Of a DNA stretch of 64,000 nucleotides, positions 16,775 through 57,806 are shown in pieces. The DNA is taken from the NCBI RefSeq assembly GCF_058153355.1, contig NZ_CM177019.1. The stretch is one strand, 5' to 3'. The notes below the pieces were generated by a model, which did not search any database, was not told where the DNA came from, and saw only the letters and a program-made list of their open reading frames with translations. A program made the position numbers and the translations under genes. Each line of letters starts with the position of its first letter. Within the stretch, counting starts at the first letter, position 1.

Positions 16775-17824
16775 ATGAAAATCAGTCGGGAAACACTCCA
16801 CCAGCTAATCGAGAATAAACTCTGTCAGGCTGGGTTAAAACGTGAGCACGCTGCAACCGTGGCTGAAGTATTGGTTTACGCCGATGCCAGAGGGATCCAC
16901 TCTCATGGCGCGGTGCGCGTTGAATACTACGCAGAGCGCATATCAAAAGGCGGCACCAACCGCGAACCAGAGTTTCGTCTTGAAGAAACCGGACCGTGCT
17001 CGGCAATTTTACATGCCGACAATGCCGCCGGACAGGTCGCGGCAAAAATGGGTATGGAACATGCCATCAAAACCGCCCAGCAAAAAGGCGTTGCGGTGGT
17101 CGGTATCAGCCGGATAGGTCACAGCGGCGCAATCTCTTATTTTGTGCAGCAGGCAGCCCGCGCCGGATTGATTGGCATTTCGATGTGCCAGTCCGATCCA
17201 ATGGTGGTGCCGTTTGGCGGCGCGGAAATTTACTACGGCACTAACCCACTGGCCTTTGCCGCGCCGGGAGAAGGCGACGAGATCCTTACTTTTGATATGG
17301 CGACTACCGTACAGGCATGGGGAAAAGTGCTCGACGCCCGCTCGCGCAATATGTCTATCCCGGATACCTGGGCGGTCGATAAAAACGGTGCACCAACAAC
17401 CGATCCCTTCGCGGTTAACGCCCTGCTCCCGGCTGCCGGACCGAAAGGTTATGGCCTGATGATGATGATCGACGTCCTCTCAGGCGTCTTACTCGGCTTA
17501 CCGTTCGGGCGTCAGGTCAGTTCGATGTATGACGATTTACACGCCGGACGTAATTTGGGGCAATTACATGTAGTTATTAACCCGAACTTTTTCTCCTCCA
17601 GCGAATTATTCCGTCAACATCTTAGCCAGACCATGCGCGAATTAAATGCCATAACCCCCGCGCCCGGTTTTAACCAGGTTTATTATCCCGGACAGGATCA
17701 GGATATTAAACAACGCAAAGCCGCCGTCGAAGGCATCGAAATTGTTGATGATATTTACCAGTATTTAATTTCCGACGCGCTTTATAACACGTCATACGAA
17801 ACGAAAAATCCCTTTGCGCAATAA
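16775..17824 (+). CDS. allD: Ureidoglycolate dehydrogenase
   Basis: 349-aa ORF, Ldh_2 family; position in allantoin cluster. Confidence 0.85.
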   Translation: MKISRETLHQLIENKLCQAGLKREHAATVAEVLVYADARGIHSHGAVRVEYYAERISKGGTNREPEFRLEETGPCSAILHADNAAGQVAAKMGMEHAIKTAQQKGVAVVGISRIGHSGAISYFVQQAARAGLIGISMCQSDPMVVPFGGAEIYYGTNPLAFAAPGEGDEILTFDMATTVQAWGKVLDARSRNMSIPDTWAVDKNGAPTTDPFAVNALLPAAGPKGYGLMMMIDVLSGVLLGLPFGRQVSSMYDDLHAGRNLGQLHVVINPNFFSSSELFRQHLSQTMRELNAITPAPGFNQVYYPGQDQDIKQRKAAVEGIEIVDDIYQYLISDALYNTSYETKNPFAQ

Positions 17825-36809: not shown

Positions 36810-37295
36810 TTATTGGGGCCGATTTAGATCTATATGAGTCGTCTGAGCAGCCGGTATACGGGCTGAGCCATTGACTAAATTGGTATAATTTTTAAAATTG
36901 CCATATATTAGTTGTACATTATCTTGCGTTCGAGTTTCAATGATCAAGCTATCACAAATCATGATCATTCTGTAAACCCCCTCTTTTATAAAACTATGTG
37001 CGTCAATATTCTTGGTTTGTGGAGTGAAGTTCCCATTATTATCTGACTTTTGACAAGGAGCATAGTGTTCCATTGTTATAATAGCATCACCTGGTAATCC
37101 AAATATATCTTCAAAATTTGTCTGATCTGCTGGTGTCCATGCTTCCAGATTTTTCGCTCTGATATTCAATACTCGCTTTGTTTCTTTCAAAGCAGGGGTT
37201 ATCATGTTGTAAAATTGATCAGTAACCTTTGCTTCTTTTTTACACACATTGCCTTTTTGAGTTACTCCTTGTGAACTTCCTTTGTTATTATTCAT
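36810..37295 (-). CDS. Truncated paralogue of the HEXXH protein (lacks HEXXH region)
   Basis: ORF 36810..37310; N-terminal ~110 aa align with 39064..39855 (QFYNMI/HFKIMI; IFGxxG; GVxRLMII/GVYRMIMI) but the ORF ends before any HEXXH motif. Confidence 0.45.
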   Translation of the reverse strand: MNNNKGSSQGVTQKGNVCKKEAKVTDQFYNMITPALKETKRVLNIRAKNLEAWTPADQTNFEDIFGLPGDAIITMEHYAPCQKSDNNGNFTPQTKNIDAHSFIKEGVYRMIMICDSLIIETRTQDNVQLIYGNFKNYTNLVNGSARIPAAQTTHIDLNRPQ

Positions 37296-43939: not shown

Positions 43940-46331
43940 ACAATCTTGCAAAATCAATATATTGCACGATCTGTCGGGTAGCAGCGATTCATTACTGTCT
44001 CGCCGCCCCCTAAGAACGGTACGTGCGAGTTTCCCCGCATACCGCTCAAGCCTTTATAAGCCTCCACCTTGTGGGAGACCAGCGTCATTACTATGTAGTT
44101 GTCGATGGCAGTTGGGATGGAGTAGGACTAAATTGCTCACATCATCGCTACCGCCAAGAGATTTCTTGAGCAAATGATGAACATTCCATCCTGTATCGCG
44201 ATTAATCGGTTGCTCACATAAAGGGCAGCGCGATCCTTGCCTTTTCCATATAGCGAGAATCCTTTTCTGCCCCTGTTGGGATTTCTTCCATGAGTAGTCC
44301 AGCCTTCTTTCGAAGTATGTTTCCCACTCGGGATCATATGGATTTGCCGTTCCCTTTATTTTTATATAGCGATTAATATGGATGTCGCTGGCCCGGGACA
44401 GAACATATTTCCTACCCTCCGGATCGACTCCATAAAATCGACCATGACACATTTTTATTGTCGTGTGGTACTTTCGGAAGATCCATCTCCGGCCTTTGCC
44501 GGGATGTCTCCTTCTGCACCACTGCCAGATTTTGCGCCAGATTTGGTTGTCGACATAGTTAAATGTCTCTGCCGATGCTACATGTTGGTGATAGTTTGCC
44601 CACCCGGTGATGATTGGATTAAGCAGATTTATTAGCACCCATGCAGGAACCGTTCGGTTACCTTCAATAGTCTCTCTGATCTTGCTAAGAAATTGTTTAA
44701 CGTTTTTCTTGGCTGGTCTGATTATGAGTTTTCTACCGAAGCGTCGGACGTGCTGCCCAAGGAAATCAAATCCGTCAGTAATGTGAGTGATGACCGTTTT
44801 CTCTTCGGATAACGTCAGCCCTCTTTCTGCAAGAAATGATTTCACCAACGGAAGAACATTCTCCTCCAGAAGTTCTTTCGACTTTCCGGAAATGATGAAA
44901 TCATCAGCATACCGGACGAAGTGAACCTGATGTTTCCTGAATGTTTTTGAGCGTTTCGGACCAAAGCGATTTTGCAGCAGTCTTTCCAGTCCATCCAGGG
45001 CCATGTTTGCCAGAACTGGAGATATGATTCCTCCCTGGGGTGTACCCGAGAGAGTTTTGCTGAATATGCTTTTTTCGATGATCCCGGCTTTCAACCAATT
45101 ACGGAGTATTTGCTTGTCCATAGGAATATTTTCAAGCAGCCACTCGTGGCTAATGTGTTCAAAGCATCCTTTAATATCGCCTTCCAGAACCCATTTCGAG
45201 GCGTTCCGGGAACTATACATATTACATACCTGTTGAATGGCGTCAGCCGTACATCGCGCTGGTCTGAAACCATAACTGTTGTGATCTGCATTAGTTTCCG
45301 ATACAGGCTCCAATCCCAGCAGATGCAGGGCCTGCATTGCCCTGTCAAGCATGACGGGGATTCCTAATGGTCTTTTCTTGCCATTAGATTTGGGTATAAA
45401 AACTCTTTTTAGCGGTAGGGGCTTGTACCCTTTTCGCCTGAGTTTGAATATCGCTTCCCATTTTGATTCTGGAGTACTCCAGATTTGACCATCAACTCCG
45501 GGGGTTTTACGCCCGCTATTTTCCGTAACTCGTTTCACCGCCAGTGCTCTGGCGCTGAATGAGCGAACCAGCAATCGTTGCAATCTACCGACTGTACGCC
45601 ATTGCTGGTTACATGCCGCCTTTGCGATTCTTGTCTGTATGGTTTTAACGTGTTGATGGCATTTCTTCCAGTTAATGGAATGCCAACCTTTTCCGTTGAT
45701 GACCGCAGTTACATTGTTAGATGTAATTTTCATACATGTCATCCAAAGAAACCTTCGCAGATGTTTCGCAATTAAAGACCAGATGGAAGTCAGCACGGTT
45801 TCCCGTTAAGGCAAATATTGAACCTCTATCCGCACGATTACAGTCCGGCTTTCGCTTTTTCCATCCTCCTTTACCCGCATTCTCATCAGTTTGCCTTACG
45901 GTGCCCCTGCCACTAGGGCGAGAATTCGGGCTTACCAAGTTCCGACCAACATACAAAGAACGGGTTAGGTTCTGTCTATCCGCCGGGGGAGTTATTGTCC
46001 ATGTATTCCCACTACGAACAGGAATAGCCTTACCCCTTACCTTTTGGTGCAAGCCTATCAGCATCTTTGGCTCGTTCTCTGTTACGACGTTTAACGACAG
46101 TTCACTATGTTAACCATACCGCCCAGCCTAGCGCTCTCGCCGCATGATGCTTGTAGCGATCAGGTTTTCTCACGATTAACTGAAGCAATATTTGCTAAGC
46201 TACATTGTCCCAAGGGCTTCAGACAGAGCCGTTACCAGCTTTGCCTGCCTCAGTAGGCTACAACTAATGGAATAGTTGGTTTTATATAAATAATTTATCA
46301 AAACAATATGTTGGACGACTTCTTGTCGCAC
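43940..46331 (-). mobile_element. Group II intron (about 2.4 kb; 3' boundary approximate)
   Basis: Minus strand begins GTGCGAC at 46331; ~535 nt precede the ORF (room for domains I-III); RT/maturase/HNH ORF in domain IV; domain V-like agcggtatgcggggaaactcgcacgtaccgttct at ~44012-44047; short hairpin after it (candidate domain VI). Confidence 0.8.
44054..45796 (-). CDS. Group II intron-encoded reverse transcriptase/maturase with HNH endonuclease
   Basis: 580-aa ORF: RT palm motif FVRYADDF, maturase-like region, C-terminal HNH (CPLCEQ…NVHHL…HPNCH). Confidence 0.85.
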   Translation of the reverse strand: MLTSIWSLIAKHLRRFLWMTCMKITSNNVTAVINGKGWHSINWKKCHQHVKTIQTRIAKAACNQQWRTVGRLQRLLVRSFSARALAVKRVTENSGRKTPGVDGQIWSTPESKWEAIFKLRRKGYKPLPLKRVFIPKSNGKKRPLGIPVMLDRAMQALHLLGLEPVSETNADHNSYGFRPARCTADAIQQVCNMYSSRNASKWVLEGDIKGCFEHISHEWLLENIPMDKQILRNWLKAGIIEKSIFSKTLSGTPQGGIISPVLANMALDGLERLLQNRFGPKRSKTFRKHQVHFVRYADDFIISGKSKELLEENVLPLVKSFLAERGLTLSEEKTVITHITDGFDFLGQHVRRFGRKLIIRPAKKNVKQFLSKIRETIEGNRTVPAWVLINLLNPIITGWANYHQHVASAETFNYVDNQIWRKIWQWCRRRHPGKGRRWIFRKYHTTIKMCHGRFYGVDPEGRKYVLSRASDIHINRYIKIKGTANPYDPEWETYFERRLDYSWKKSQQGQKRILAIWKRQGSRCPLCEQPINRDTGWNVHHLLKKSLGGSDDVSNLVLLHPNCHRQLHSNDAGLPQGGGL

Positions 46332-46378
46332 TCGTAGACCAGATAAGCGTAGCGCATCAGGCAATCTAACGCCTGTCA

Positions 46379-48793
46379 TCACCCCGCAAACTGCCTGAAC
46401 AGCGCCTTCCCTTTTACCAGTCGCGCGCCCAGCCAGCCGCCGAAAAGTGACAGCAGCAGCGCACCGCTACACGGCAACACAATCCACAATCGCCAGTCTG
46501 GCTCCCACGGGAAATCAAACACTTTCGATTGCAGTACCGCCAGCACCGTTTCCGCACCAATTGCGGCCACCAGGCCGGATACAAACCCGAGCATGGCGAA
46601 CTCACACCACAATGTCGTGCGCAGCAGTTTTTTGCCCGCACCGAGAGTGCGCCACACCACCAGCTCCTGATGACGCTGACGCATTCCCACCTGCACCTGT
46701 GCCAGCAACAGCAACATACCGCAGGCGGTGACCAGCACCACCATCACTTCCAGCGCCCGACTTACCTGCTCCAGCACCTGACCGACCTGTTTTAAAATCG
46801 CGCCAATGTCTAACAGGCTAATGGTCGGGAACTGGCGGTTGAGTTGCGTCAACATGCCGTTGCCATTCTCCCAGCGGAAACTGGTAAGCCAGCTCTGCGG
46901 TTGCCCGTCTAATGCCCCTTCAGGGAAAATAAAATAGAAATTAGGCCGCAGACTTTCCCAGTCCACTTTGCGCAGGCTGGTCACTTTAGCGCGGAACTCC
47001 TGGGTATCGCCCATAAAAGTCACGGTATCACCGAGGGCAACGTTTAAGCGTTTCGCCAGCCCCTCTTCCATCGACACTTCATCGGCTTTTGGCGGCCAGT
47101 TACCGGCGACAATCGGATTATGATCGGGCCGCGTATTTTGCCAGGTAAGATTGAGTTCGCGATTGAGCGCCTCATCTTCATTGCCTTCTGTCGGCTTGCC
47201 GTTAATCGCCGTCAGTCTCGCCCGCACCACCGGATAAAACGATTCCGGGACTATCTGATGTTCCGCGAGGAACGCTTTTAGCGGTGCTACCTGTTCTGTG
47301 GCGATGTTAATTAAAAAGTAGTTCGGGCTTTCTGGTGGTAGCTGCTGCTGCCAGCGGTCGAGCAGATCGCCACGCAGCACCAGTAGCAGTGCCAGCAGCA
47401 TAAAGGAGAGCGAAAATGCCGAAAGCTGGCTTAACGTTGACCACGGCTGACGTAACAGGCGGCTAACCGCCAGGCGCAGAGGCAGCGATTTCAGCGTCAT
47501 GCGGCGAAGTACATTCAGCAGCATCCAGCCCAGCACACCGCACAGCAAAGCCAGTACTACCGCGCCCGCCAGCACCGCCCAGAGCAGCATACTGCCGCCC
47601 ATCAGTCCGGCGAGCAGTAGCACAACCACCACACTGACAATCGGCAGATAAAACTTGAGCGGCCAGACGTTCGCTACCACATCATTTCGTAATACCCGTA
47701 AAGGCTGCGTTGCCAGCAACAGTCGGTATGGTCGCAGCCCTACCAGCAGCGAGATGACGGTCATGGTGCCGAGCGCCCACAGCCACGGCCAGAGGCTGGC
47801 AGGCGGTAGTGCGGCTGGCAGCACGGGTTTGAGAAGTACCATCAACACGTTTTCGAACAACAGACCTATAGCCCCGCCGGTAACGGCTGAAAGTACCAGC
47901 ACCATCAACCACTGACCGACAATTAACTTACGCAATTGCGCTCGCCTTGCTCCCAGCGTTTTGAGGATCGCCACCAAGTCGTAGCGACTGCGACAGTAAT
48001 GATTCATCGCCACCGCGACCGCCGCCACCGCCAGCAGCAAGGTCAGAAGCGCCGAAAGCAGCAGGAACTGTTGCGAGCGTTCCATTGAGCGCCCCAGCGC
48101 GCCTTCGTCCTGTTCCAGACCGTACCAGCGTTGTTCGGGTTTAAGCTGGGGTAACAACCATTTCTCATAGCCGTCGAGCTGGTTCTCGCTGCCGCCGAAT
48201 TTATAGCGCCAGGTGACCCGACTCCCCGGCTGCACGGCTCCGGTTTTATCAACATCCGCCAGATTCATCATCAGGCGTGGGGCTATCTGGAAAGGATTAA
48301 AACCGGAATCCGGTTCCTGAATCACTTCTCCGGCAATCCGCAAGGTGGCATCGCCCACGTCAATGGTGTCGCCCGTTTTCAGGTTAAGCAGCGCCATCAG
48401 GCGTGGGGCCAGCAATACGCTGCCCGCCTGCGGTTTCAGGCCAGGGGGATTAGTTTGCAGATCGCCATACATCGGGTAGATATCATCCACCGCTTTGACG
48501 TTCGCCAGCTGCGGTGTGTCGCCTGCAAATGTCATGGTGGCGAAAGTCAGCTGCTTGCCGACTTTCAGGCCGCGCTTTTGCGCTTCCTCCAGCCACGCTT
48601 GCGGCACTTCGCGCGAACTGCGCAACGCCCGATCGCCCGCCATAAACTCCCGGCTTTGCTGGCTTAAGCCCTTCTCCATGCGATCGCTGATATTGCCCAG
48701 CGCCAGCACACAGGCCACCGCCAGGCTAAGCGCCAGCCAGACAATTAACAGCGACGGCGAGCGCCATTCGCGCCAGAACCAACGTGCAATCAT
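46379..48793 (-). CDS. ybbP: ABC transporter permease (FtsX-like, duplicated)
   Basis: 804-aa polytopic ORF overlapping the ybbA stop. Confidence 0.85.
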   Translation of the reverse strand: MIARWFWREWRSPSLLIVWLALSLAVACVLALGNISDRMEKGLSQQSREFMAGDRALRSSREVPQAWLEEAQKRGLKVGKQLTFATMTFAGDTPQLANVKAVDDIYPMYGDLQTNPPGLKPQAGSVLLAPRLMALLNLKTGDTIDVGDATLRIAGEVIQEPDSGFNPFQIAPRLMMNLADVDKTGAVQPGSRVTWRYKFGGSENQLDGYEKWLLPQLKPEQRWYGLEQDEGALGRSMERSQQFLLLSALLTLLLAVAAVAVAMNHYCRSRYDLVAILKTLGARRAQLRKLIVGQWLMVLVLSAVTGGAIGLLFENVLMVLLKPVLPAALPPASLWPWLWALGTMTVISLLVGLRPYRLLLATQPLRVLRNDVVANVWPLKFYLPIVSVVVVLLLAGLMGGSMLLWAVLAGAVVLALLCGVLGWMLLNVLRRMTLKSLPLRLAVSRLLRQPWSTLSQLSAFSLSFMLLALLLVLRGDLLDRWQQQLPPESPNYFLINIATEQVAPLKAFLAEHQIVPESFYPVVRARLTAINGKPTEGNEDEALNRELNLTWQNTRPDHNPIVAGNWPPKADEVSMEEGLAKRLNVALGDTVTFMGDTQEFRAKVTSLRKVDWESLRPNFYFIFPEGALDGQPQSWLTSFRWENGNGMLTQLNRQFPTISLLDIGAILKQVGQVLEQVSRALEVMVVLVTACGMLLLLAQVQVGMRQRHQELVVWRTLGAGKKLLRTTLWCEFAMLGFVSGLVAAIGAETVLAVLQSKVFDFPWEPDWRLWIVLPCSGALLLSLFGGWLGARLVKGKALFRQFAG

Positions 48794-49476
48794 GCTTCCT
48801 CCTGCAACTGCCCGTTCACCAGCCGTAAGCAGCGGTCACAGCGTGCCGCCAGTTGCAGGTCGTGAGTCACCATAATCAACGTGGTGCCATGCTCACGGTT
48901 GAGGGAAAACAGCAGGTCGGCAATTTTATCGCCTGTCTGGCGGTCAAGGTTACCGGTGGGTTCGTCGGCAAACAGCACATCAGGCCGACCATTAAAAGCT
49001 CGCGCCAGCGCCACACGTTGCTGTTCGCCGCCGGAAAGCTGTGCCGGAAGATGATCAAGACGTTTACCCAGCCCTAACTGTTCGAGCAACGCTTTCGCCC
49101 CATTACGACTTTCCACGCTACTCTCACCGCGCAGCAGCGCCGGAAGCTCGACGTTTTCCAGCGCGTTAAGGGTAGGAATTAACATAAATGACTGAAAAAC
49201 AAAGCCTACGTGCTTCGCGCGCAACTTTGCCCGCGCTTCTTCGTCCATATTATGTAGCGGTTGTCCCACCAGATTTACTTCGCCACTGCTGCCGTCATCC
49301 AGCCCAGCGAGGATCGCCAGCAACGTTGACTTACCCGATCCCGACTCGCCCACCAGCGCGATGGTCTCGCCACGTTTGACAACCAGCTCAACTCCGGTGA
49401 GGATGGAGAGTTCATGCTCCCCCTGACCGACGGACTTCTTAAGATGATGAACTTCAACAATGTTTTCCGCTGGCAT
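48790..49476 (-). CDS. ybbA: ABC transporter ATP-binding protein
   Basis: 228-aa ORF with Walker A (GESGSGKST) and ABC signature (LSGGEQQR). Confidence 0.85.
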   Translation of the reverse strand: MPAENIVEVHHLKKSVGQGEHELSILTGVELVVKRGETIALVGESGSGKSTLLAILAGLDDGSSGEVNLVGQPLHNMDEEARAKLRAKHVGFVFQSFMLIPTLNALENVELPALLRGESSVESRNGAKALLEQLGLGKRLDHLPAQLSGGEQQRVALARAFNGRPDVLFADEPTGNLDRQTGDKIADLLFSLNREHGTTLIMVTHDLQLAARCDRCLRLVNGQLQEEA

Positions 49477-50070
49477 TTGCCCTTCCTGTTCCTGGTCCTG
49501 TTAACCTTCCGTGCCGCCGCAGCAGACACGTTATTGATTCTGGGTGATAGCCTGAGCGCCGGGTATCGAATGTCTGCCAGCGCGGCCTGGCCTGCCTTGT
49601 TGAATGATAAGTGGCAGAGTAAAACGTCGGTAGTTAATGCCAGCATCAGCGGCGACACCTCGCAACAAGGGCTGGCGCGCCTTCCGGCTCTGCTGAAACA
49701 GCATCAGCCGCGCTGGGTGCTGGTAGAACTGGGCGGCAATGACGGTTTGCGTGGTTTTCAGCCACAGCAAACCGAGCAAACGCTGCGCCAGATTTTGCAG
49801 GATGTCAAAGCCGCCAACGCTGAACCATTGTTAATGCAAATACGTCTGCCTGCAAACTATGGTCGCCGTTATAATGAAGCCTTTAGCGCCATTTACCCCA
49901 AACTCGCCAAAGAGTTTGATGTTCCGCTGCTGCCCTTTTTTATGGAAGAGGTCTACCTCAAGCCACAATGGATGCAGGATGACGGTATTCATCCCAACCG
50001 CGACGCCCAGCCGTTTATTGCCGACTGGATGGCGAAGCAGTTGCAGCCTTTAGTAAATCATGACTCATAA
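49444..50070 (+). CDS. tesA: Acyl-CoA thioesterase I / lysophospholipase L1
   Basis: ORF 49414..50070; likely start at MMNFNNVFRWHL; GDSL motif present (ILGDSLSAGY). Confidence 0.85.
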   Translation: MMNFNNVFRWHLPFLFLVLLTFRAAAADTLLILGDSLSAGYRMSASAAWPALLNDKWQSKTSVVNASISGDTSQQGLARLPALLKQHQPRWVLVELGGNDGLRGFQPQQTEQTLRQILQDVKAANAEPLLMQIRLPANYGRRYNEAFSAIYPKLAKEFDVPLLPFFMEEVYLKPQWMQDDGIHPNRDAQPFIADWMAKQLQPLVNHDS

Positions 50071-50869
50071 AGCAACGGAGATCCTGACAGGTAAAGTTAT
50101 GCAAAAATCGGTCTTAATTACCGGATGTTCCAGTGGAATTGGCCTGGAAAGCGCGCTCGAATTAAAACGCCAGGGTTTTCATGTGCTGGCAGGTTGCCGG
50201 AAACCGGATGATGTTGAGCGCATGAACAATATGGGATTCACCGGCGTGTTGATCGATCTGGATTCGCCAGAAAGTGTTGATCGTGCAGCCGACGAAGTGA
50301 TCGCTCTGACCGATAATTGTCTGTATGGGATCTTTAACAATGCCGGATTCGGCATGTATGGTCCCCTTTCCACCATCAGCCGTGCGCAGATGGAACAGCA
50401 GTTTTCCGCCAACTTTTTCGGCGCACACCAGCTCACCATGCGCCTGTTACCCGCGATGTTGCCGCACGGTGAAGGGCGTATTGTGATGACCTCATCGGTG
50501 ATGGGATTAATCTCCACACCGGGTCGTGGCGCTTACGCGGCCAGTAAATATGCGCTGGAGGCGTGGTCAGACGCACTGCGCATGGAGCTGCGCCACAGCG
50601 GAATTAAAGTCAGCCTGATTGAACCCGGTCCCATTCGTACTCGCTTCACCGACAACGTCAACCAGACGCAAAGTGATAAACCAGTCGAAAATCCCGGCAT
50701 CGCCGCTCGCTTTACGTTGGGGCCGGAAGCGGTGGTGGACAAAGTACGCCATGCTTTTATTAGCGAGAAGCCGAAGATGCGCTATCCGGTGACGCTGGTG
50801 ACCTGGGCGGTAATGGTGCTCAAACGCCTGCTGCCGGGGCGCGTGATGGACAAAATATTGCAGGGGTGA
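50060..50869 (+). CDS. ybbO: Short-chain dehydrogenase/reductase
   Basis: 269-aa ORF with SDR cofactor motif (ITGCSSGIG) and YxxxK (YAASK). Confidence 0.8.
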   Translation: MTHKATEILTGKVMQKSVLITGCSSGIGLESALELKRQGFHVLAGCRKPDDVERMNNMGFTGVLIDLDSPESVDRAADEVIALTDNCLYGIFNNAGFGMYGPLSTISRAQMEQQFSANFFGAHQLTMRLLPAMLPHGEGRIVMTSSVMGLISTPGRGAYAASKYALEAWSDALRMELRHSGIKVSLIEPGPIRTRFTDNVNQTQSDKPVENPGIAARFTLGPEAVVDKVRHAFISEKPKMRYPVTLVTWAVMVLKRLLPGRVMDKILQG

Positions 50870-50887
50870 GTTGAAGCGCGCGCTTAA

Positions 50888-51784
<897 letters not shown>

Positions 51785-51812
51785 TTTTCCGTTGAAATGC
51801 GATGTGCTGGTT

Positions 51813-51897
51813 TGTAGGCCTGATAAGACGCGCCAGCGTCGCATCAGGCATCCGCGCATAGCCGCCGGATGCGGCGTGAACGCCTTATCCGGCCTAC
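51813..51897. repeat. BIME (pair of inverted REP units)
   Basis: gtaggcctgataagacgcgccagcgtcgcatcaggc … gccggatgcggcgtgaacgccttatccggcctac. Confidence 0.8.
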
Positions 51898-51918
51898 CAA
51901 ACCGTGCTAATTCAATAT

Positions 51919-52698
51919 TTATTTCTTCGTCAATTGCGTCACCACCAACTGGTGGCGCGAATTATAAAACTTACGATAGGTTAAATAGCAGGCAATAATG
52001 GTCGACAAGCTGGCGGTTGAGAGCAGCATAAAGGTCACCATAATCTGATACTTAATCGCCTTCACCGGATCAATCCCGGCAAATATCAGCCCGGACATCA
52101 TTCCCGGTAAACTCACTAAGCCAACCGTTTTTGCTGAATCCACCGTCGGAATTAAAGCCGCGCGAATACTGTCGCGAATCAATATCGCTGAAGCCTGTTT
52201 CGGCGTCGCGCCAAGACTCAGTTTCTCCTGAATCTGTTGTTGTTCGCTAATGACCCGTTGCCCTAAATTATTGTAACATAGCCCTACCGCCACCATCGCG
52301 TTACCGGCAATCATCCCTGCAATAGGAATCACCTGCATCGGGATAAACTCAATCGACCCTGAGAGAATCAGCACCGCCAGGGTAATTCCTGCCCCGACCG
52401 TAATGGCAATAAACGATGAGATAAAAGCTTTAGCAATATATTTACTGCGTTTTTGCGCGTTCCACGCCGCATTAAAGCAGATAAATAACACCATCAATAA
52501 TGTCAGGCTGGCATCATCCACGCTGAAAATATACTTCAGCACATAGCCGACAATAATCAGCTGAATTATCGCGCGCCCGACGCTCCAGAGAATATCTTTC
52601 TCCAGCGCCAGTTTTTCTTTATGGCTAATTAAGATTGCCACCACCACCAGCATTAATGCCAGTGCCAATGATTCGTTAGTAATATTATGCGAGTTCAT
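51919..52698 (-). CDS. fetB: Iron export ABC transporter permease
   Basis: ORF 51919..52725; likely start at MNSHNITNESLALA (~259 aa), overlapping fetA stop. Confidence 0.8.
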   Translation of the reverse strand: MNSHNITNESLALALMLVVVAILISHKEKLALEKDILWSVGRAIIQLIIVGYVLKYIFSVDDASLTLLMVLFICFNAAWNAQKRSKYIAKAFISSFIAITVGAGITLAVLILSGSIEFIPMQVIPIAGMIAGNAMVAVGLCYNNLGQRVISEQQQIQEKLSLGATPKQASAILIRDSIRAALIPTVDSAKTVGLVSLPGMMSGLIFAGIDPVKAIKYQIMVTFMLLSTASLSTIIACYLTYRKFYNSRHQLVVTQLTKK

Positions 52699-53362
52699 AG
52701 CGTGCTTCCTGCATTTCTCCGGCATGCGGTTGCAGTGTAATCACTTTATCCGCATGATTAATTTCGTCTTTATCGTGTGTCACCCACAGCACGGCAATAT
52801 TTTGCTCGCGCACATAACGGTGGATCATCTCATTAACGTTATGTTTATTACTTTCATCCAGTGCACTGGTGATTTCATCCAGCAATAATACCTTTGGCAT
52901 AAATTGCAGGTTACGAATCAATGAGATGCGTTGTTTTTCACCACCAGATAGCTCGGCGATATTCTTTGTCAATATGCTGTCCGGCAAAGCGAAGCGTTCG
53001 AGAAAATCGAGAAAAATGGCTGGGTCAGGCTGCTGGTTACGGATCTGCCAGGGAAAGATCAGATTATCGTATACCGTATCGCCAAACAGCGTCGGCGTCT
53101 GGGCGCAGTAAGATACTTGCTGGCGGTAGATTTCTGGCTTGAGTGTACTGACATCCTCACCTTCAAACAGCAACGTTCCGCTGGTTGGGCTGATTAATGA
53201 AGCAACAATTTTCAGCAGCGTACTTTTGCCACAACCGGAAGGGCCGGTAATTAACTTAAATTCGCCAGCACGTAGCGAAAAATTGATGTTATTAAGAATC
53301 TTCGTATCACCCGCCAGATATCCTACGTTTTGTAGCTAAAGCAAAGGACTATTTTCCTGCAT
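52685..53362 (-). pseudogene. fetA: Iron export ABC ATPase with in-frame amber codon at codon 9
   Basis: Minus strand reads ATG CAG GAA AAT AGT CCT TTG CTT TAG … from 53362; the 225-codon frame is otherwise open; ORF track only shows the 162-aa remainder from an internal Met. Confidence 0.7.
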
Positions 53363-53507
53363 CGCTGTTCCCTTTTTCTGATTTTTACTAAAAACAGTTT
53401 ATCCTTCGCAGGAATAAGGGGGAACTCTCTTTCAGTAATCAGGTATAATTTGTTTAATCAAGCAGCAATTTTGCTGATTATGGACGGTACAACAGGAGGT
53501 TTTTCCG

Positions 53508-54425
53508 ATGCTTATCTTTATCCCGATTCTCATTTTTGTCGCGCTGGTCATTGTCGGCGCGGGTGTTAAAATCGTGCCGCAGGGCTATCAATGGACGGTA
53601 GAACGCTTTGGTCGCTATACCAAAACGTTACAGCCGGGGCTCAGTCTGGTCGTGCCGTTTATGGATCGCATTGGTCGTAAGATCAATATGATGGAGCAAG
53701 TGCTCGATATCCCTTCTCAGGAAGTTATCTCGAAAGATAACGCCAACGTTACCATCGACGCGGTCTGTTTTATTCAGGTAATTGATGCCCCGCGCGCGGC
53801 TTATGAAGTCAGCAATCTGGAGCTGGCGATCATCAATCTGACCATGACTAACATCCGTACCGTACTGGGTTCAATGGAACTTGACGAAATGCTCTCTCAG
53901 CGCGACAGCATCAACTCACGCCTGCTGCGTATTGTCGATGAGGCCACCAACCCGTGGGGGATTAAAGTCACCCGTATTGAAATTCGCGACGTGCGCCCAC
54001 CGGCAGAGCTTATCTCTTCGATGAACGCGCAGATGAAAGCGGAACGTACCAAACGCGCTTACATCCTTGAAGCGGAAGGGATCCGTCAGGCGGAAATCCT
54101 CAAAGCCGAAGGTGAAAAACAGTCGCAAATCCTGAAAGCGGAAGGTGAACGTCAGTCGGCATTCTTACAGGCCGAAGCGCGTGAACGTTCTGCCGAAGCG
54201 GAAGCCCGCGCCACCAAAATGGTGTCTGAAGCCATCGCCTCCGGTGATATTCAGGCGGTGAACTACTTCGTAGCGCAGAAATACACCGAAGCGTTACAAC
54301 AGATCGGTTCGTCCAGTAACAGCAAAGTAGTGATGATGCCATTAGAGGCCAGCAGCCTGATGGGGTCGATTGCCGGGATTGCTGAACTGGTGAAAGACAG
54401 CGCCAACAAGCGGACTCAGCCATGA
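53508..54425 (+). CDS. qmcA: SPFH/stomatin-like membrane protein
   Basis: 305-aa ORF with N-terminal TM helix and band-7 domain. Confidence 0.85.
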
Positions 54426-54880
54426 TGGAGTTAATGGTCGTTCATCCACATATTTTCTGGCTCAGTCTCGGCGGGTTGTTGCTGGCAGCCGAGATGTTGG
54501 GCGGAAATGGTTATCTGTTGTGGAGCGGCGTGGCAGCGGTGATTACCGGCCTGGTGGTCTGGCTGGTGCCGCTGGGTTGGGAGTGGCAAGGGGTGATGTT
54601 TGCCGTCCTGACGCTGCTCGCCGCCTGGCTGTGGTGGAAATGGTTGTCGCGGCGGGTGCGCGAACAAAAGCACAGCGACAGTCATTTAAACCAGCGCGGG
54701 CAGCAGCTGATTGGTCGACGTTTTGTGCTGGAATCACCGCTGGTCAATGGGCGAGGTCATATGCGCGTCGGTGACAGTTCATGGCCTGTCAGCGCCAGCG
54801 AGGATCTCGGCGCTGGTACGCATGTTGAGGTGATTGCGATAGAAGGGATAACGCTGATTATCCGTGCGGTCATCGCCTGA
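54422..54880 (+). CDS. ybbJ: NfeD-like membrane protein
   Basis: 152-aa ORF overlapping qmcA stop (ATGA); two TM helices plus C-terminal OB-like region. Confidence 0.8.
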
Positions 54881-54919
54881 CGCGTCTTATCACACCCGGA
54901 AATCTGTACTAAAAATCAT

Positions 54920-54949
54920 GCCGGATAAGGCGTTTACGCCGCATCCGGC
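54920..54949. repeat. REP element
   Basis: gccggataaggcgtttacgccgcatccggc palindromic unit after ybbJ. Confidence 0.7.
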
Positions 54950-54972: not shown

Positions 54973-55335
54973 TTACTCTTCCCGGCCTTTACCCATACTT
55001 TTTTGGTCTTCATCCGGATAGTGTTTTTTTAGATATTCCAGGACGTTTTTATTGACCTTGTGTTGCGTATACACCCACCCTTTCCAGTAATCAGGCTGGT
55101 CCAGATAAACTTCTGGCGGAATGGTGAAATCAGAAAGCGTTAACCATTCGGCTAACAGATCGGGGTTTCGTTTCTGGATCAACTGCAACAGCATAATCAG
55201 CGACATGGCAGAGGCAGGAGCCGTACTATCGCCGCTTAAATACTTCCACACTGTCGACCGGTTCGAACGAAAAAGGATCGGTAGCAATGCCCGGTCCAGA
55301 TTCATTTCATTAAAAATCTTCTCAAATTCATTCAT
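54973..55335 (-). CDS. Hypothetical protein, possible HTH regulator
   Basis: 120-aa ORF divergent from the autotransporter gene; segment NRSTVWKYLSGD resembles a helix-turn-helix turn. Confidence 0.3.
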   Translation of the reverse strand: MNEFEKIFNEMNLDRALLPILFRSNRSTVWKYLSGDSTAPASAMSLIMLLQLIQKRNPDLLAEWLTLSDFTIPPEVYLDQPDYWKGWVYTQHKVNKNVLEYLKKHYPDEDQKSMGKGREE

Positions 55336-55519
55336 TTAAATGTTCCTGCCTGGCGTAAACCTCTTAAAAATTGAGATTTATCAAAGAAACGCATTTTAGC
55401 ACACATCAGGAACCGCTTCACGTTTAGTCCAGAAACAGAATTTATTTCGCTTTTCAAAACAAGTCTTTACTCTTTTTTACATTGAAAGAGCACGAAATGT
55501 TTTCCTTTTTAATTTATAA

Positions 55520-55540
55520 AAGAAACATTTTTTGTTTCTT
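55520..55540. promoter_or_regulatory. Perfect inverted repeat AAGAAACA-N5-TGTTTCTT
   Basis: Read directly; AT-rich intergenic region ~165 bp upstream of the autotransporter start. Confidence 0.4.
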
Positions 55541-55652
55541 ATTGGTGGTGTTTACGCTTACACCAGACAAAAATGCGCTTTACATCACACAAATGGCGGC
55601 GTAGATTTCGATCATATTGCAACGTATTTTATTTCTTAATAACAATATTATT

Positions 55653-55669
55653 TGTTTCTTATAGAAACA
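55653..55669. promoter_or_regulatory. Perfect inverted repeat TGTTTCT-N3-AGAAACA
   Basis: Same half-sites in opposite arrangement, ~35 bp upstream of the autotransporter start codon. Confidence 0.4.
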
Positions 55670-55702
55670 TTAATGCGACTTATTTTGAACAAGAGAAAAT
55701 GA

Positions 55703-56719
55703 ATGAAAACTGTAAACGTAGCTTTACTGGCACTCATAATTTCAGCAACATCCAGCCCTATTGTTTTAGCTGGTGATACCATTGAAGCGGCGGCAACAGA
55801 GCTTTCAGCCATTAACTCTGGCATGTCGCAATCGGAGATTGAGCAGAAGATTACCCGCTTTTTAGAACGCACCGACAACAGCCCCGCTGCATATACCTAT
55901 TTGACTGAACATCACTACATCCCTTCTGAAACACCTGATACCACTCAGACTCCCCCTGTCCAGACAGATCCTGACGCAGGACAAAAAACCGTTGCCGCTA
56001 CAGGTGATGTACAGACAACCGCCCGTTATCAGAGCATGCTCAACGCCCGACAGTCTGCGGTAACTGATGCCCAGCAAACGCAAATTACAGAGCAACAGGC
56101 GCAGATCGTAGCCACACAAAAAACGCTCGCCGCGACTGGAGATACGCAAAATACCGCGCATTATCAGGAGATGATTAATGCCAGGCTGGCGGCTCAAAAT
56201 GAGGCTAATCAGCGCACTACCACTGAACAAGGGCAGAAAATGAATGCGCTGACAACCGATGTGGCAGCACAACAGCAATATGAAAGGACTCAATACGATA
56301 AACAAATGCAAAGTCTGGCGCAGAAGTCTGTCCAGGCACATGAGCAAATTGAAAGTCTGAGACAAGATTCCGCACAAACGCAGCAACAGTTAACCAACAC
56401 CCAAAACCGGGTCGCTGATAACAGCCAGCAAATTAACACGCTCAATAACCATTTCGATTCGCTGAAAAACGAAGTTGAGGACAATCGTAAAGAAGCCAAT
56501 GCGGGAACTGCATCTGCCATCGCTATCGCCTCACAACCACAGGTGAAAACCGGTGACTTGATGATGGTGTCAGCGGGAGCGGGAACGTTCAACGGTGAAT
56601 CTGCGGTGTCTGTAGGAACATCTTTTAATGCCGGAACGCATACGGTACTTAAAGCAGGTATTTCTGCGGATACACAATCTGATTTCGGTGCGGGTGTCGG
56701 CGTGGGATATTCGTTCTAA
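55703..56719 (+). CDS. Small YadA-like trimeric autotransporter
   Basis: 338-aa ORF: signal peptide, Gln-rich region with internal repeats (TVAATGDVQTTARYQSMLNAR / TLAATGDTQNTAHYQEMINAR), C-terminal anchor-like GTASAIAIASQPQ…GAGVGVGYSF. Confidence 0.6.
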   Translation: MKTVNVALLALIISATSSPIVLAGDTIEAAATELSAINSGMSQSEIEQKITRFLERTDNSPAAYTYLTEHHYIPSETPDTTQTPPVQTDPDAGQKTVAATGDVQTTARYQSMLNARQSAVTDAQQTQITEQQAQIVATQKTLAATGDTQNTAHYQEMINARLAAQNEANQRTTTEQGQKMNALTTDVAAQQQYERTQYDKQMQSLAQKSVQAHEQIESLRQDSAQTQQQLTNTQNRVADNSQQINTLNNHFDSLKNEVEDNRKEANAGTASAIAIASQPQVKTGDLMMVSAGAGTFNGESAVSVGTSFNAGTHTVLKAGISADTQSDFGAGVGVGYSF

Positions 56720-56772
56720 TTTTAACAGCAATTTCTTATTCGCAATTTTCCGCACATTATTTAAGGTTAACA

Positions 56773-57195
56773 ATGATGAATAGCTCCATTAAATCGTTTT
56801 CCCTGCTGGCGGTTATATTACTGGCTGGCTGTAGTTCACCCACTTCCCGCATCGCAGATTGCCAGGCGCAGGGCGTCAGTCATGATACCTGTTATCTCGC
56901 AGAACAGCAGCGTCAGACGGCTATTTTAAGTGCATCCGAGGCGCAGGCATTTAAAAATGCAGAAGCCGCACAACATGCCCAGGCGGCAAAGAAAGCCATT
57001 TATAAAGGATTTGGCGTCACCTTCAGAATGAGCAGTAAGAACTTTGCTTATCTCAATGATTCATTATGTGCCATAGATGAGGATAATGCCGATGCCACGG
57101 TTTATCAGTCGGGTCTGTATAACGTCATTGTTTATCATCACACAGGAAAAATCGCCTTAATGAAAGAAGGCCAGTTTGTGGGTTATTTAAAATGA
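56773..57195 (+). CDS. Lipoprotein
   Basis: 140-aa ORF with lipobox (LLAGC) after signal peptide. Confidence 0.5.
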   Translation: MMNSSIKSFSLLAVILLAGCSSPTSRIADCQAQGVSHDTCYLAEQQRQTAILSASEAQAFKNAEAAQHAQAAKKAIYKGFGVTFRMSSKNFAYLNDSLCAIDEDNADATVYQSGLYNVIVYHHTGKIALMKEGQFVGYLK

Positions 57196-57395
57196 AGGAG
57201 CAAAGGAAAATCCCCCTGACGCATATTATGATTATCGGTGCGTTTATTTTTGCCTTCTTGCAAGTAGTATTATTAGCCTCCCTGGTTCACGCTGTGAATG
57301 TTAACAACGAAATCCAGGAAGGCTTATTTCAGTCGGGGCGCATTATGGTAGAAAGTTTGCAGCATATTCTTTCGGTGCAAACGGGGATTAACTGA
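57192..57395 (+). CDS. Small membrane protein
   Basis: 67-aa ORF with one TM helix; start overlaps lipoprotein stop (ATGA). Confidence 0.35.
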   Translation: MKEQRKIPLTHIMIIGAFIFAFLQVVLLASLVHAVNVNNEIQEGLFQSGRIMVESLQHILSVQTGIN

Positions 57396-57398
57396 TTT

Positions 57399-57806
57399 TC
57401 ACCCCGCCCGATGATGACAGCAGCCGGAGAGATTTTCGATAATTGGGCAGTCGGCGCTGTCATCACCGGGGCAGGCATTCGCCAGCGCCAGTAGCTGGTC
57501 GCGCATGGATTGCAGCTCCTCAATATGTCGCTCGATCTCCGCCACCTTTTCCAGCGTGCGCCGTTTAACGTCGGCGCTGTGCCGCTGCGGGTCGTTAAAC
57601 AGATTCACCAGCTCGCCGCTCTCTTCCAGGTTAAAACCCACCTGGCGTGCCTGCCGCAGTAAGGTCAGTTCGTTGAGATGCTGCTGCGTGTAAGTACGAT
57701 AACCGTTTTCGCTGCGCATCGGCGGCGTCACCAGCCCCTTCTCTTCATAGAAGCGGATTGCTTTGCTGGTCAGGCCGGTAATTTTTGCTACATCGCTAAT
57801 GTTCAT
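57399..57806 (-). CDS. cueR: MerR-family copper-responsive regulator
   Basis: 135-aa [29 protein letters not shown]… with C-terminal metal-binding Cys pair. Confidence 0.9.

What the first reader, a model, noticed from the sequence alone, without database searches (positions are those of the whole stretch)
52685..53362. In-frame amber stop at codon 9 of fetA
The reverse strand reads ATG CAG GAA AAT AGT CCT TTG CTT TAG and then stays open for the remaining ~216 codons, including the Walker A motif. Full-length product would need suppression or reinitiation; otherwise the ABC ATPase of the FetAB iron exporter is inactivated while fetB is intact.
Basis: seen in the sequence. Interest (0 to 1): 0.4.

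Follow-up and report, generated by a model that had tools for sequence, protein, structure and literature searches.

The report
Early stop codon inactivating fetA
A single C-to-T change turns codon 9 of the E. coli iron-exporter ATPase gene fetA into a stop codon; this is a real, recent and rare knockout of an otherwise intact gene, which makes it an ordinary young pseudogene and not a new biological mechanism.

Summary
On the minus strand, fetA starts at 53362. Codon 9 (53338-53336) is TAG, and the frame then stays open for 216 codons to the normal TAA at 52685. All 25 fetched relatives encode Gln there (CAG or CAA). None of 5,319 complete E. coli genomes matches the TAG-bearing 57-mer perfectly. 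The window's fetA differs from the nearest intact allele by only this change plus one synonymous change, so the lesion is young. It is not an assembly error: an independent Logan assembly of reads (SRR31441161) is 100% identical over 3,078 bp, TAG included. The same Q9-amber also occurs on an unrelated fetA haplotype (SRR8456483), and other lineages carry different fetA frameshifts, so fetA loss recurs sporadically. No ATG, GTG or TTG lies in frame before codon 57, which is downstream of Walker A. Residues 7-15 align to the first beta-strand and probable A-loop of ABC ATPases, so a functional restart product is unlikely. No suppressor tRNA lies in the window. Best reading: a null or severely hypomorphic fetA, probably with reduced fetB expression through lost translational coupling and polarity (inferred). 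The expected result is mild, conditional sensitivity to peroxide, iron or nickel. Interest is low.

The parts
52685..53362 (-). fetA (ybbL) coding region, now a pseudogene: 225 codons with one internal stop
   Evidence: NCBIfam FetA equivalog scores 347.6 bits against a cutoff of 292. 99.7% identical to intact alleles.
53336..53338 (-). Amber codon TAG at codon 9 (ancestral CAG, Gln); the mutated base is the T at 53338 on the minus strand (A on the plus strand)
   Evidence: 25 of 25 comparators encode Gln. 0 of 5,319 complete genomes match perfectly.
53339..53362 (-). Residual 8-codon ORF (MQENSPLL), the only product expected from normal termination
   Evidence: translation.
53222..53245 (-). 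Walker A / P-loop GPSGCGKS (codons 40-47), downstream of the stop and upstream of any canonical restart codon
   Evidence: Alignment to ABC nucleotide-binding domains.
53171..53173 (-). First canonical in-frame start after the stop (TTG, codon 57). It would give a 162-aa fragment lacking beta-strand 1, the A-loop and Walker A. This is the product gene callers report.
51919..52698 (-). fetB (ybbM) permease gene, intact; its ATG overlaps the 3' end of fetA by 14 nt (52685-52698)
   Evidence: no stops or gaps. (TIGR00245 scores 476.8 bits against a cutoff of 410). (overlap ATGAACTCGCATAA).
52705..52710 (-). Shine-Dalgarno-like AGGAAG 6 nt upstream of the fetB ATG; it would allow some independent fetB initiation
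   Evidence: anti-SD duplex -4.3 kcal/mol, similar to fetA's own -5.3.
53363..53507 (-). fetA-qmcA intergenic (promoter/5' UTR) region. The 138 nt next to fetA (53363-53500) are identical to relatives with intact fetA, so there is no second lesion in that stretch.
   Evidence: columns 1-138 are identical in the four closest alleles. The consensus promoter scan found nothing above chance.
52985..53062 (-). C-rich, G-poor stretch of fetA mRNA (C/G 1.6-1.9), a candidate Rho-loading region once ribosome-free
   Evidence: composition scan. Function is inferred only.

Best explanation
This is a genuine, evolutionarily recent nonsense mutation (CAG to TAG, Gln9 to amber) in fetA, the ATPase subunit of the FetAB (YbbL/YbbM) ABC iron exporter, in a rare E. 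coli lineage. Ribosomes starting at the normal ATG terminate after 8 residues. No usable in-frame start precedes the Walker A motif, so essentially no active FetA is made and the FetAB exporter is null or severely hypomorphic. Basal near-cognate readthrough of UAG could supply only a trace of wild-type protein. fetB is intact in sequence and has its own Shine-Dalgarno, but it probably loses expression. Translational coupling to fetA is lost, and the 637 nt of ribosome-free fetA mRNA are open to Rho-dependent polarity. Shown here: the mutation, its rarity, its support in reads, the absence of restart codons, and the intactness of fetB and the upstream region. Inferred: loss of activity, polarity on fetB, and phenotype (conditional sensitivity to H2O2, iron or nickel).
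For: The sequence and translation are. Codon 9 is Gln in 25 of 25 comparators, including alleles only 90-92% identical, where it is the synonymous CAA. No perfect match to the TAG 57-mer exists in 5,319 complete E. coli genomes. Versus the nearest intact allele (L005, MFDS1022581) there are only 2 nt differences, the nonsense change and one synonymous change, so no further decay has occurred. fetA is normally under purifying selection: 36-43 synonymous against 9-12 nonsynonymous codon differences to divergent alleles. An independent assembly from reads (Logan SRR31441161, contig 367) is 100% identical to window 51872-54949 including the TAG, and two samples carry that contig. No ATG, GTG or TTG lies in frame before codon 57. 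Residues 7-15 align with beta-strand 1 and the A-loop aromatic region of solved ABC domains, and the NCBIfam FetA profile starts at residue 7. The window holds no tRNA. On function, fetA and fetB transposon mutants lose fitness under H2O2-generating honey, and that paper cites deletion of either gene as causing H2O2 sensitivity (PMC8803141). fetA and fetB act synergistically on nickel (PMC6338753).
Against: Only 64 kb of the genome is visible, so an amber suppressor tRNA elsewhere cannot be excluded. Basal UAG readthrough and weak initiation at near-cognate codons (CUG16, ACG20, AUU22) could give traces of protein. SRR31441161 may be the read set behind this very assembly. If so, it excludes assembly error but not a mutation acquired in the sequenced culture. 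No expression or phenotype data exist for this strain.
Confidence: 0.85

Rival explanations
1. Sequencing, base-calling or assembly error: the true base is C and fetA is intact.
For: The allele is private: 0 of 5,319 complete genomes and 0 hits in metagenome contigs. The window also contains two 1-bp indels in other genes, one of them in an A8 homopolymer.
Against: A Logan assembly built independently from raw reads (SRR31441161) has the same T within a 3,078-bp contig that is 100% identical, and two samples carry that contig. The change is a substitution, not the homopolymer indel typical of error-prone assemblies. About 50 other genes in the window, including all core genes, are clean relative to the reference. 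The window's T1SS frameshift is also present in a different run, SRR8656992, so the window's lesions are generally real. The metagenome denominator is tiny: only 15 CAG contigs.
Confidence: 0.04
2. The gene is still functionally expressed. Either the strain carries an amber suppressor (a supE-type tRNA-Gln would restore the exact wild-type protein), or natural UAG readthrough or reinitiation gives enough FetA for a leaky, hypomorphic exporter.
For: The stop replaces Gln, the residue that near-cognate tRNA-Gln(CUG) or supE would insert (established knowledge). The following base is C, generally the weakest termination context in E. coli (recalled from Poole et al. 1995, not checked here). The rest of the ORF carries no further damage. 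Near-cognate codons CUG16, ACG20 and AUU22 follow the stop, some with moderate anti-SD complementarity.
Against: The window holds no tRNA gene. Suppressors are rare in natural isolates (general knowledge). The lack of further damage is equally expected for a very young pseudogene. Restart at codon 16 or later removes beta-strand 1 and the probable A-loop Tyr15. Near-cognate starts typically work at about 1% or less of AUG (general knowledge). The stop is not conserved in any relative, so this is not a programmed recoding site.
Confidence: 0.08
3. Adaptive loss: inactivation of fetA, possibly at Q9 in particular, is positively selected in some niches, for example iron-poor hosts where exporting iron is costly.
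For: The identical CAG-to-TAG change occurs on an independent haplotype with 19 other fetA differences (L034, SRR8456483). At least six other independent fetA lesions occur in otherwise clean contexts, and one complete genome appears to have an IS1 insertion at fetA (H19).
Against: Only three C-to-T nonsense targets (Q2, Q9, Q11) lie in the region that my look-up method could detect, so hitting the same codon twice has roughly a 1-in-3 chance. The lesions are very rare against tens of thousands of fetA-bearing contigs: 5,417 of 5,426 complete genomes keep at least 80% of the 901-nt fetA probe region. fetA shows purifying selection overall. Several of the other broken copies sit in obviously low-quality assemblies with broken neighbours (L032, L035, L040, L041).
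Confidence: 0.03

Closest known systems
FetAB (YbbL/YbbM) ABC-type iron exporter of E. coli K-12 (Nicolaou et al. 2013, AEM 79:7210; cited via PMC8803141, PMC6338753, PMC4902296)
   Same: Same locus (cnoX - fetB - fetA - qmcA - ybbJ). fetA and fetB overlap by 14 nt. Both reach the NCBIfam equivalog thresholds. The upstream region is identical to that of intact relatives.
   Different: Codon 9 is TAG instead of CAG, so the ATPase subunit cannot be made at full length by normal decoding.
Classical polar amber mutations in promoter-proximal genes of E. coli operons, with occasional reinitiation (lacZ/lacI amber mutants; from established knowledge, not tested here)
   Same: An early UAG in the first gene of a two-gene operon, a long ribosome-free mRNA upstream of the distal gene, and a distal gene start embedded in the end of the first gene.
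   Different: This is a natural isolate allele, not a laboratory mutant. Unlike lacI, no in-frame AUG, GUG or UUG is available near the stop for a functional restart.
Other naturally disrupted fetA alleles in E. coli assemblies (170-aa truncated 'YbbL' products, e.g. GCN00656.1, VFS02733.1, STI19272.1)
   Same: N-terminal lesions leave an internal TTG-initiated fragment as the called gene. One of them (Logan SRR8456483) has the identical Q9 amber.
   Different: Most are 1-2 bp deletions or insertions at other codons (6, 11, 27, 39, 45, 50). They lie on different haplotypes. Some are probably assembly artefacts, because their neighbouring genes are broken too.

Membership tests
FetA (iron efflux ABC transporter ATP-binding subunit; NCBIfam NF007601) | Whole-protein score above the curated equivalog cutoff | tested here: met
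   347.6 bits against a cutoff of 292, covering profile 1-204 over residues 7-210, with codon 9 read as Gln.
FetA (iron efflux ABC transporter ATP-binding subunit; NCBIfam NF007601) | ABC ATPase motifs present: Walker A, ABC signature, Walker B | tested here: met
   GPSGCGKS, LSGGEKQR and LLLDE are all present in the conceptual translation, which aligns along solved ABC domains.
FetA (iron efflux ABC transporter ATP-binding subunit; NCBIfam NF007601) | Adjacent, co-oriented FetB permease gene (TIGR00245 / UPF0014) | tested here: met
   fetB at 51919-52698 scores 476.8 bits against a cutoff of 410. It is intact and overlaps fetA by 14 nt.
FetA (iron efflux ABC transporter ATP-binding subunit; NCBIfam NF007601) | Uninterrupted reading frame, i.e. 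a functional gene and not a pseudogene | tested here: not met
   In-frame TAG at codon 9. The locus is therefore a fetA pseudogene by sequence.
FetA (iron efflux ABC transporter ATP-binding subunit; NCBIfam NF007601) | Iron export or peroxide-protection activity | not testable with these tools
   Needs phenotyping.
Programmed stop-codon readthrough / recoding site | The stop codon is conserved at the same position in related genes | tested here: not met
   25 of 25 comparators encode Gln. 0 of 5,319 complete genomes carry the TAG. The only other carrier is an independent, equally isolated mutant.
Suppressed amber allele (supE-type strain) | Presence of a tRNA with a CUA anticodon | tested here: inconclusive
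   No tRNA gene of any kind lies in the 64-kb window. The rest of the genome is not available.
Young (recent) pseudogene | A single inactivating lesion, no accumulation of further nonsynonymous changes or indels, intact flanks | tested here: met
   One nonsense and one synonymous difference from the nearest intact allele, and no indels. The upstream 138 nt are identical to relatives.

The most novel reading that the evidence does not exclude
The Q9 amber might not be a neutral accident but a recurrent, selected hypomorphic allele. The same CAG-to-TAG change arose independently on two unrelated E. coli haplotypes. Because UAG-C is a leaky context and near-cognate tRNA-Gln restores the exact wild-type residue, the allele could act as a low-output 'dimmer' of iron export, favoured where iron is scarce. 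It would also uncouple FetB, for which a FetA-independent role has been suggested (PMC6329577).
Probability: 0.05. Interest if true: 0.35.

Novelty: already known. Interest (0 to 1): 0.1.

Why it matters
For annotation, this locus should be labelled a fetA pseudogene (internal stop). The 162-aa fragment that gene callers emit should not be taken for a functional ABC protein. For this strain's biology it predicts a missing or crippled FetAB iron exporter, with mild, conditional sensitivity to peroxide, iron or nickel stress. More generally, it adds one documented example to the sporadic loss of a conserved but non-essential metal-homeostasis gene in natural E. coli. It opens no new mechanistic question.

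Tried and rejected
(1) I looked for the window's genome among 5,426 complete E. coli genomes. None is identical: the best is 99.7% over fetA and about 97% over 24 kb, so the strain could not be named.

(2) I considered a Shigella-like decaying genome. This was rejected because no IS-disrupted genes were found. Of about 55 genes compared, all core genes are intact except fetA; the other two lesions are in accessory genes.

(3) I considered low-quality assembly noise. This was rejected. One of the two indels is not in a homopolymer and is reproduced in another run, and the TAG is reproduced in a reads-based assembly.

(4) I considered a Dcm (CCWGG) deamination hotspot to explain the recurrence. 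The local sequence CTT-C-AGC is not a Dcm site.

(5) I asked whether the true start could lie downstream of codon 9, which would make the TAG harmless. This was rejected. No canonical start lies before codon 57. Codons 7-15 are homologous to ABC beta-strand 1. In the first 15 codons, the three differences from the most divergent alleles, codon 9 CAG/CAA among them, are all synonymous, as expected of coding sequence.

(6) Metagenome scans gave 0 hits for the TAG 43-mer, but the control CAG 43-mer found only 15 contigs, so the test has little power.

(7) The consensus promoter and terminator scan of the operon gave nothing above chance.

(8) The primary FetAB paper (PMC3837747) is not held, so its findings are cited second-hand.

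(9) I could not identify the second sample that carries the TAG contig, nor tell whether SRR31441161 is the read set of this very assembly.

Full report
**Observation**

Reading the minus strand from 53362 gives ATG CAG GAA AAT AGT CCT TTG CTT TAG.
- The TAG is codon 9 and occupies 53338-53336.
- The same frame then runs open for 216 more codons to TAA at 52687-52685.
- It contains Walker A (GPSGCGKS, 53245-53222), the ABC signature LSGGEKQR and Walker B LLLDE.
- The interval 52685-53362 is exactly the 678-nt fetA CDS annotated in related genomes.

**Identity of the gene**

With codon 9 read as Gln, the product scores 347.6 bits on the NCBIfam FetA equivalog NF007601 (cutoff 292). The profile begins at residue 7, so the stop lies inside the conserved core. 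The next gene, 51919-52698, scores 476.8 bits on the FetB equivalog TIGR00245 (cutoff 410). It has no stops or indels. Its ATG lies 14 nt inside the end of fetA. The neighbourhood is the standard E. coli cnoX / fetB-fetA / qmcA-ybbJ arrangement.

**Is the stop unusual?**

The four closest complete genomes all read CAG. All 25 comparator loci fetched by various routes encode Gln. Twenty use CAG and five use CAA, the latter in fetA alleles only 90-92% identical.

A 57-nt probe centred on the T found no perfect match in the 5,319 complete E. coli genomes that matched; all were 98.2% or lower. One caveat applies: a TAG on a background with another mismatch inside the probe would be hidden. The probe sequence is invariant in the common haplotypes.

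fetA is normally constrained. Against the divergent alleles there are 36-43 synonymous and 9-12 nonsynonymous codon differences. In the first 15 codons the only nonsynonymous difference is the stop itself.

Relative to the nearest intact allele (L005, MFDS1022581; WP_001157551-type), the window's fetA carries only the nonsense change and one synonymous change. The 138 nt upstream are identical to relatives. This is the signature of a very young lesion.

**Is it an artefact?**

The exact 162-aa fragment that a gene caller would emit (TTG at 53173 onward) exists in the public collection only on two Logan contigs. The one retrieved, from run SRR31441161, is 100% identical to window 51872-54949 and includes the TAG. 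Another contig of that run matches window 46314-51842 at 100%. The window's exact YbbP occurs only in that run.

That run is therefore the same strain, possibly the very reads behind this assembly. Either way, a reads-based re-assembly reproduces the T, which argues against an assembly or consensus error.

The rest of the window looks sound. Of about 55 genes compared with strain MFDS1022581, only three are disrupted:
- fetA.
- A hypothetical HExxH protein next to vgrG, which carries a nonsense change plus an A8-to-A7 slip.
- The type I secretion ABC gene, which carries a TT-to-T deletion. That lesion is also present in a different run, SRR8656992.

**Can the gene still be expressed?**

- The window holds no tRNA gene. 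The rest of the genome cannot be examined.
- Between the stop and Walker A there is no in-frame ATG, GTG or TTG. The first is TTG at codon 57.
- Near-cognate codons (CUG16, ACG20, AUU22, AUC26, AUU38) exist, some with moderate anti-SD complementarity.
- Residues 7-15 (LLQLQNVGY) align with the first beta-strand and the aromatic A-loop position of solved ABC domains. Any such restart product would lack elements needed for ATP binding (inference).
- From general knowledge, basal UAG readthrough by tRNA-Gln would regenerate the wild-type protein, but only at trace level.
- No FetAB structure is in the PDB by sequence search.

**Effect on fetB (inferred)**

fetB has its own AGGAAG Shine-Dalgarno 6 nt upstream of its ATG, with an anti-SD duplex of -4.3 kcal/mol against -5.3 for fetA. 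However, its start is embedded in fetA, and 637 nt of fetA mRNA would be untranslated. That stretch includes a C-rich, G-poor region with C/G of 1.6-1.9 around 53062-52985. By analogy with classical polar amber mutations, reduced fetB expression is expected.

**Functional expectation from the literature**

- FetAB is regarded as an iron exporter that lowers Fenton chemistry. fetA and fetB transposon mutants lose fitness under an H2O2-generating honey model, and that paper cites deletion of either gene as sensitising cells to H2O2 (PMC8803141).
- fetA and fetB act synergistically on nickel (PMC6338753).
- Transport itself has not been shown directly (PMC4902296).
- One study found a phenotype for a fetB deletion but not a fetA deletion, hinting at a FetA-independent role of FetB (PMC6329577).

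The predicted consequence is therefore a mild, conditional stress sensitivity.

**Recurrence**

The same protein cluster holds other truncated FetA calls. Their loci show diverse lesions: 1-2 bp deletions at codons 6, 11, 27, 39, 45 and 50, and insertions. Some sit in assemblies with broken neighbours and are probably artefacts.

One contig (L034, run SRR8456483) carries the identical CAG-to-TAG at codon 9 on a different haplotype. It has 19 other fetA differences and is 97.3% identical over 2.8 kb. It differs from the strain 120899 allele only by the nonsense change.

This is independent recurrence, but it is not remarkable:
- Only Q2, Q9 and Q11 offer C-to-T nonsense targets in the part of the gene my look-up could detect.
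- The site is not a Dcm motif.
- Such alleles are very rare among tens of thousands of fetA-bearing contigs.
- Metagenome scans found 0 TAG and only 15 CAG contigs, so they add little.

**Verdict**

This is a real, recent, lineage-private nonsense mutation that makes fetA a pseudogene. It is an ordinary event of a well-known kind, and interest is low.

Noticed in passing
window 43973-46279 (- strand): A complete group II intron lies between a small hypothetical gene and ybbP. Rfam finds D1-D4 (RF02012, 112.5 bits) at 46132-46279 and domains V/VI (RF00029, 65.5 bits) at 43973-44049. These flank a 580-aa RT/maturase/HNH ORF at 44054-45796 (Pfam RVT_1, RVT_N, GIIM, HNH). No intron-encoded protein is annotated at this site in the nearest complete genome.
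   Followed up: partly
window 35013-35171 (ORF 34811-35272, - strand): A perfect hexanucleotide array, (GCAGTA) x 26.5 with 100% matches, encodes a (Thr-Ala)n tract inside a 153-aa ORF with no Pfam match, in the accessory region near the vgrG/tssI island. It could be a length-variable locus.
   Followed up: partly
window 58975-61136 (- strand), lesion at ~60219: The type I secretion permease/ATPase gene next to HlyD and the giant adhesin siiEA is frameshifted by a 1-bp deletion (GCCGTTGC to GCCGTGC) and splits into 308-aa and about 430-aa ORFs. The same lesion is in Logan run SRR8656992, which is 99.985% identical over 6.8 kb, so it is a lineage-level pseudogene.
   Followed up: yes
window 36496-37295 (- strand): A hypothetical protein with an HExxH motif (HELSH), adjacent to the vgrG/tssI cluster, carries two lesions: a Tyr-to-stop nonsense (ORF ends at 36810) and an A8-to-A7 frameshift near 36598. 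It is an older pseudogene than fetA.
   Followed up: partly
window 54973-57400: An accessory insert lies between ybbJ and cueR: a 120-aa hypothetical, a 338-aa YadA-anchor adhesin at 55703-56719, and two small hypotheticals. It is followed by cueR, HlyD, the T1SS ABC gene and siiEA. From recalled knowledge of K-12, ybbJ and cueR are adjacent there. The length of the YadA-like gene varies widely among relatives, from 338 to 594 aa.
   Followed up: no
window 51817-51894 (- strand): A REP-derived naRNA4 (RF02564, 83.6 bits) element sits in the cnoX-fetB intergenic region, just downstream of fetB.
   Followed up: no
L009, L011, L015, L017, L018 (loci with FetB protein identical to the window's): These loci encode the identical FetB protein, but their fetA DNA is only 90-92% identical to the window's. 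This shows strong mosaicism or recombination breakpoints inside the fetAB operon among Escherichia lineages.
   Followed up: no
L006 19052-20101 (strain MFDS1022581): In the reference strain used for comparison, allD is annotated as a pseudogene with an internal stop, whereas the window's allD (16775-17824) is intact. This is another example of sporadic single-gene nonsense lesions in E. coli.
   Followed up: no
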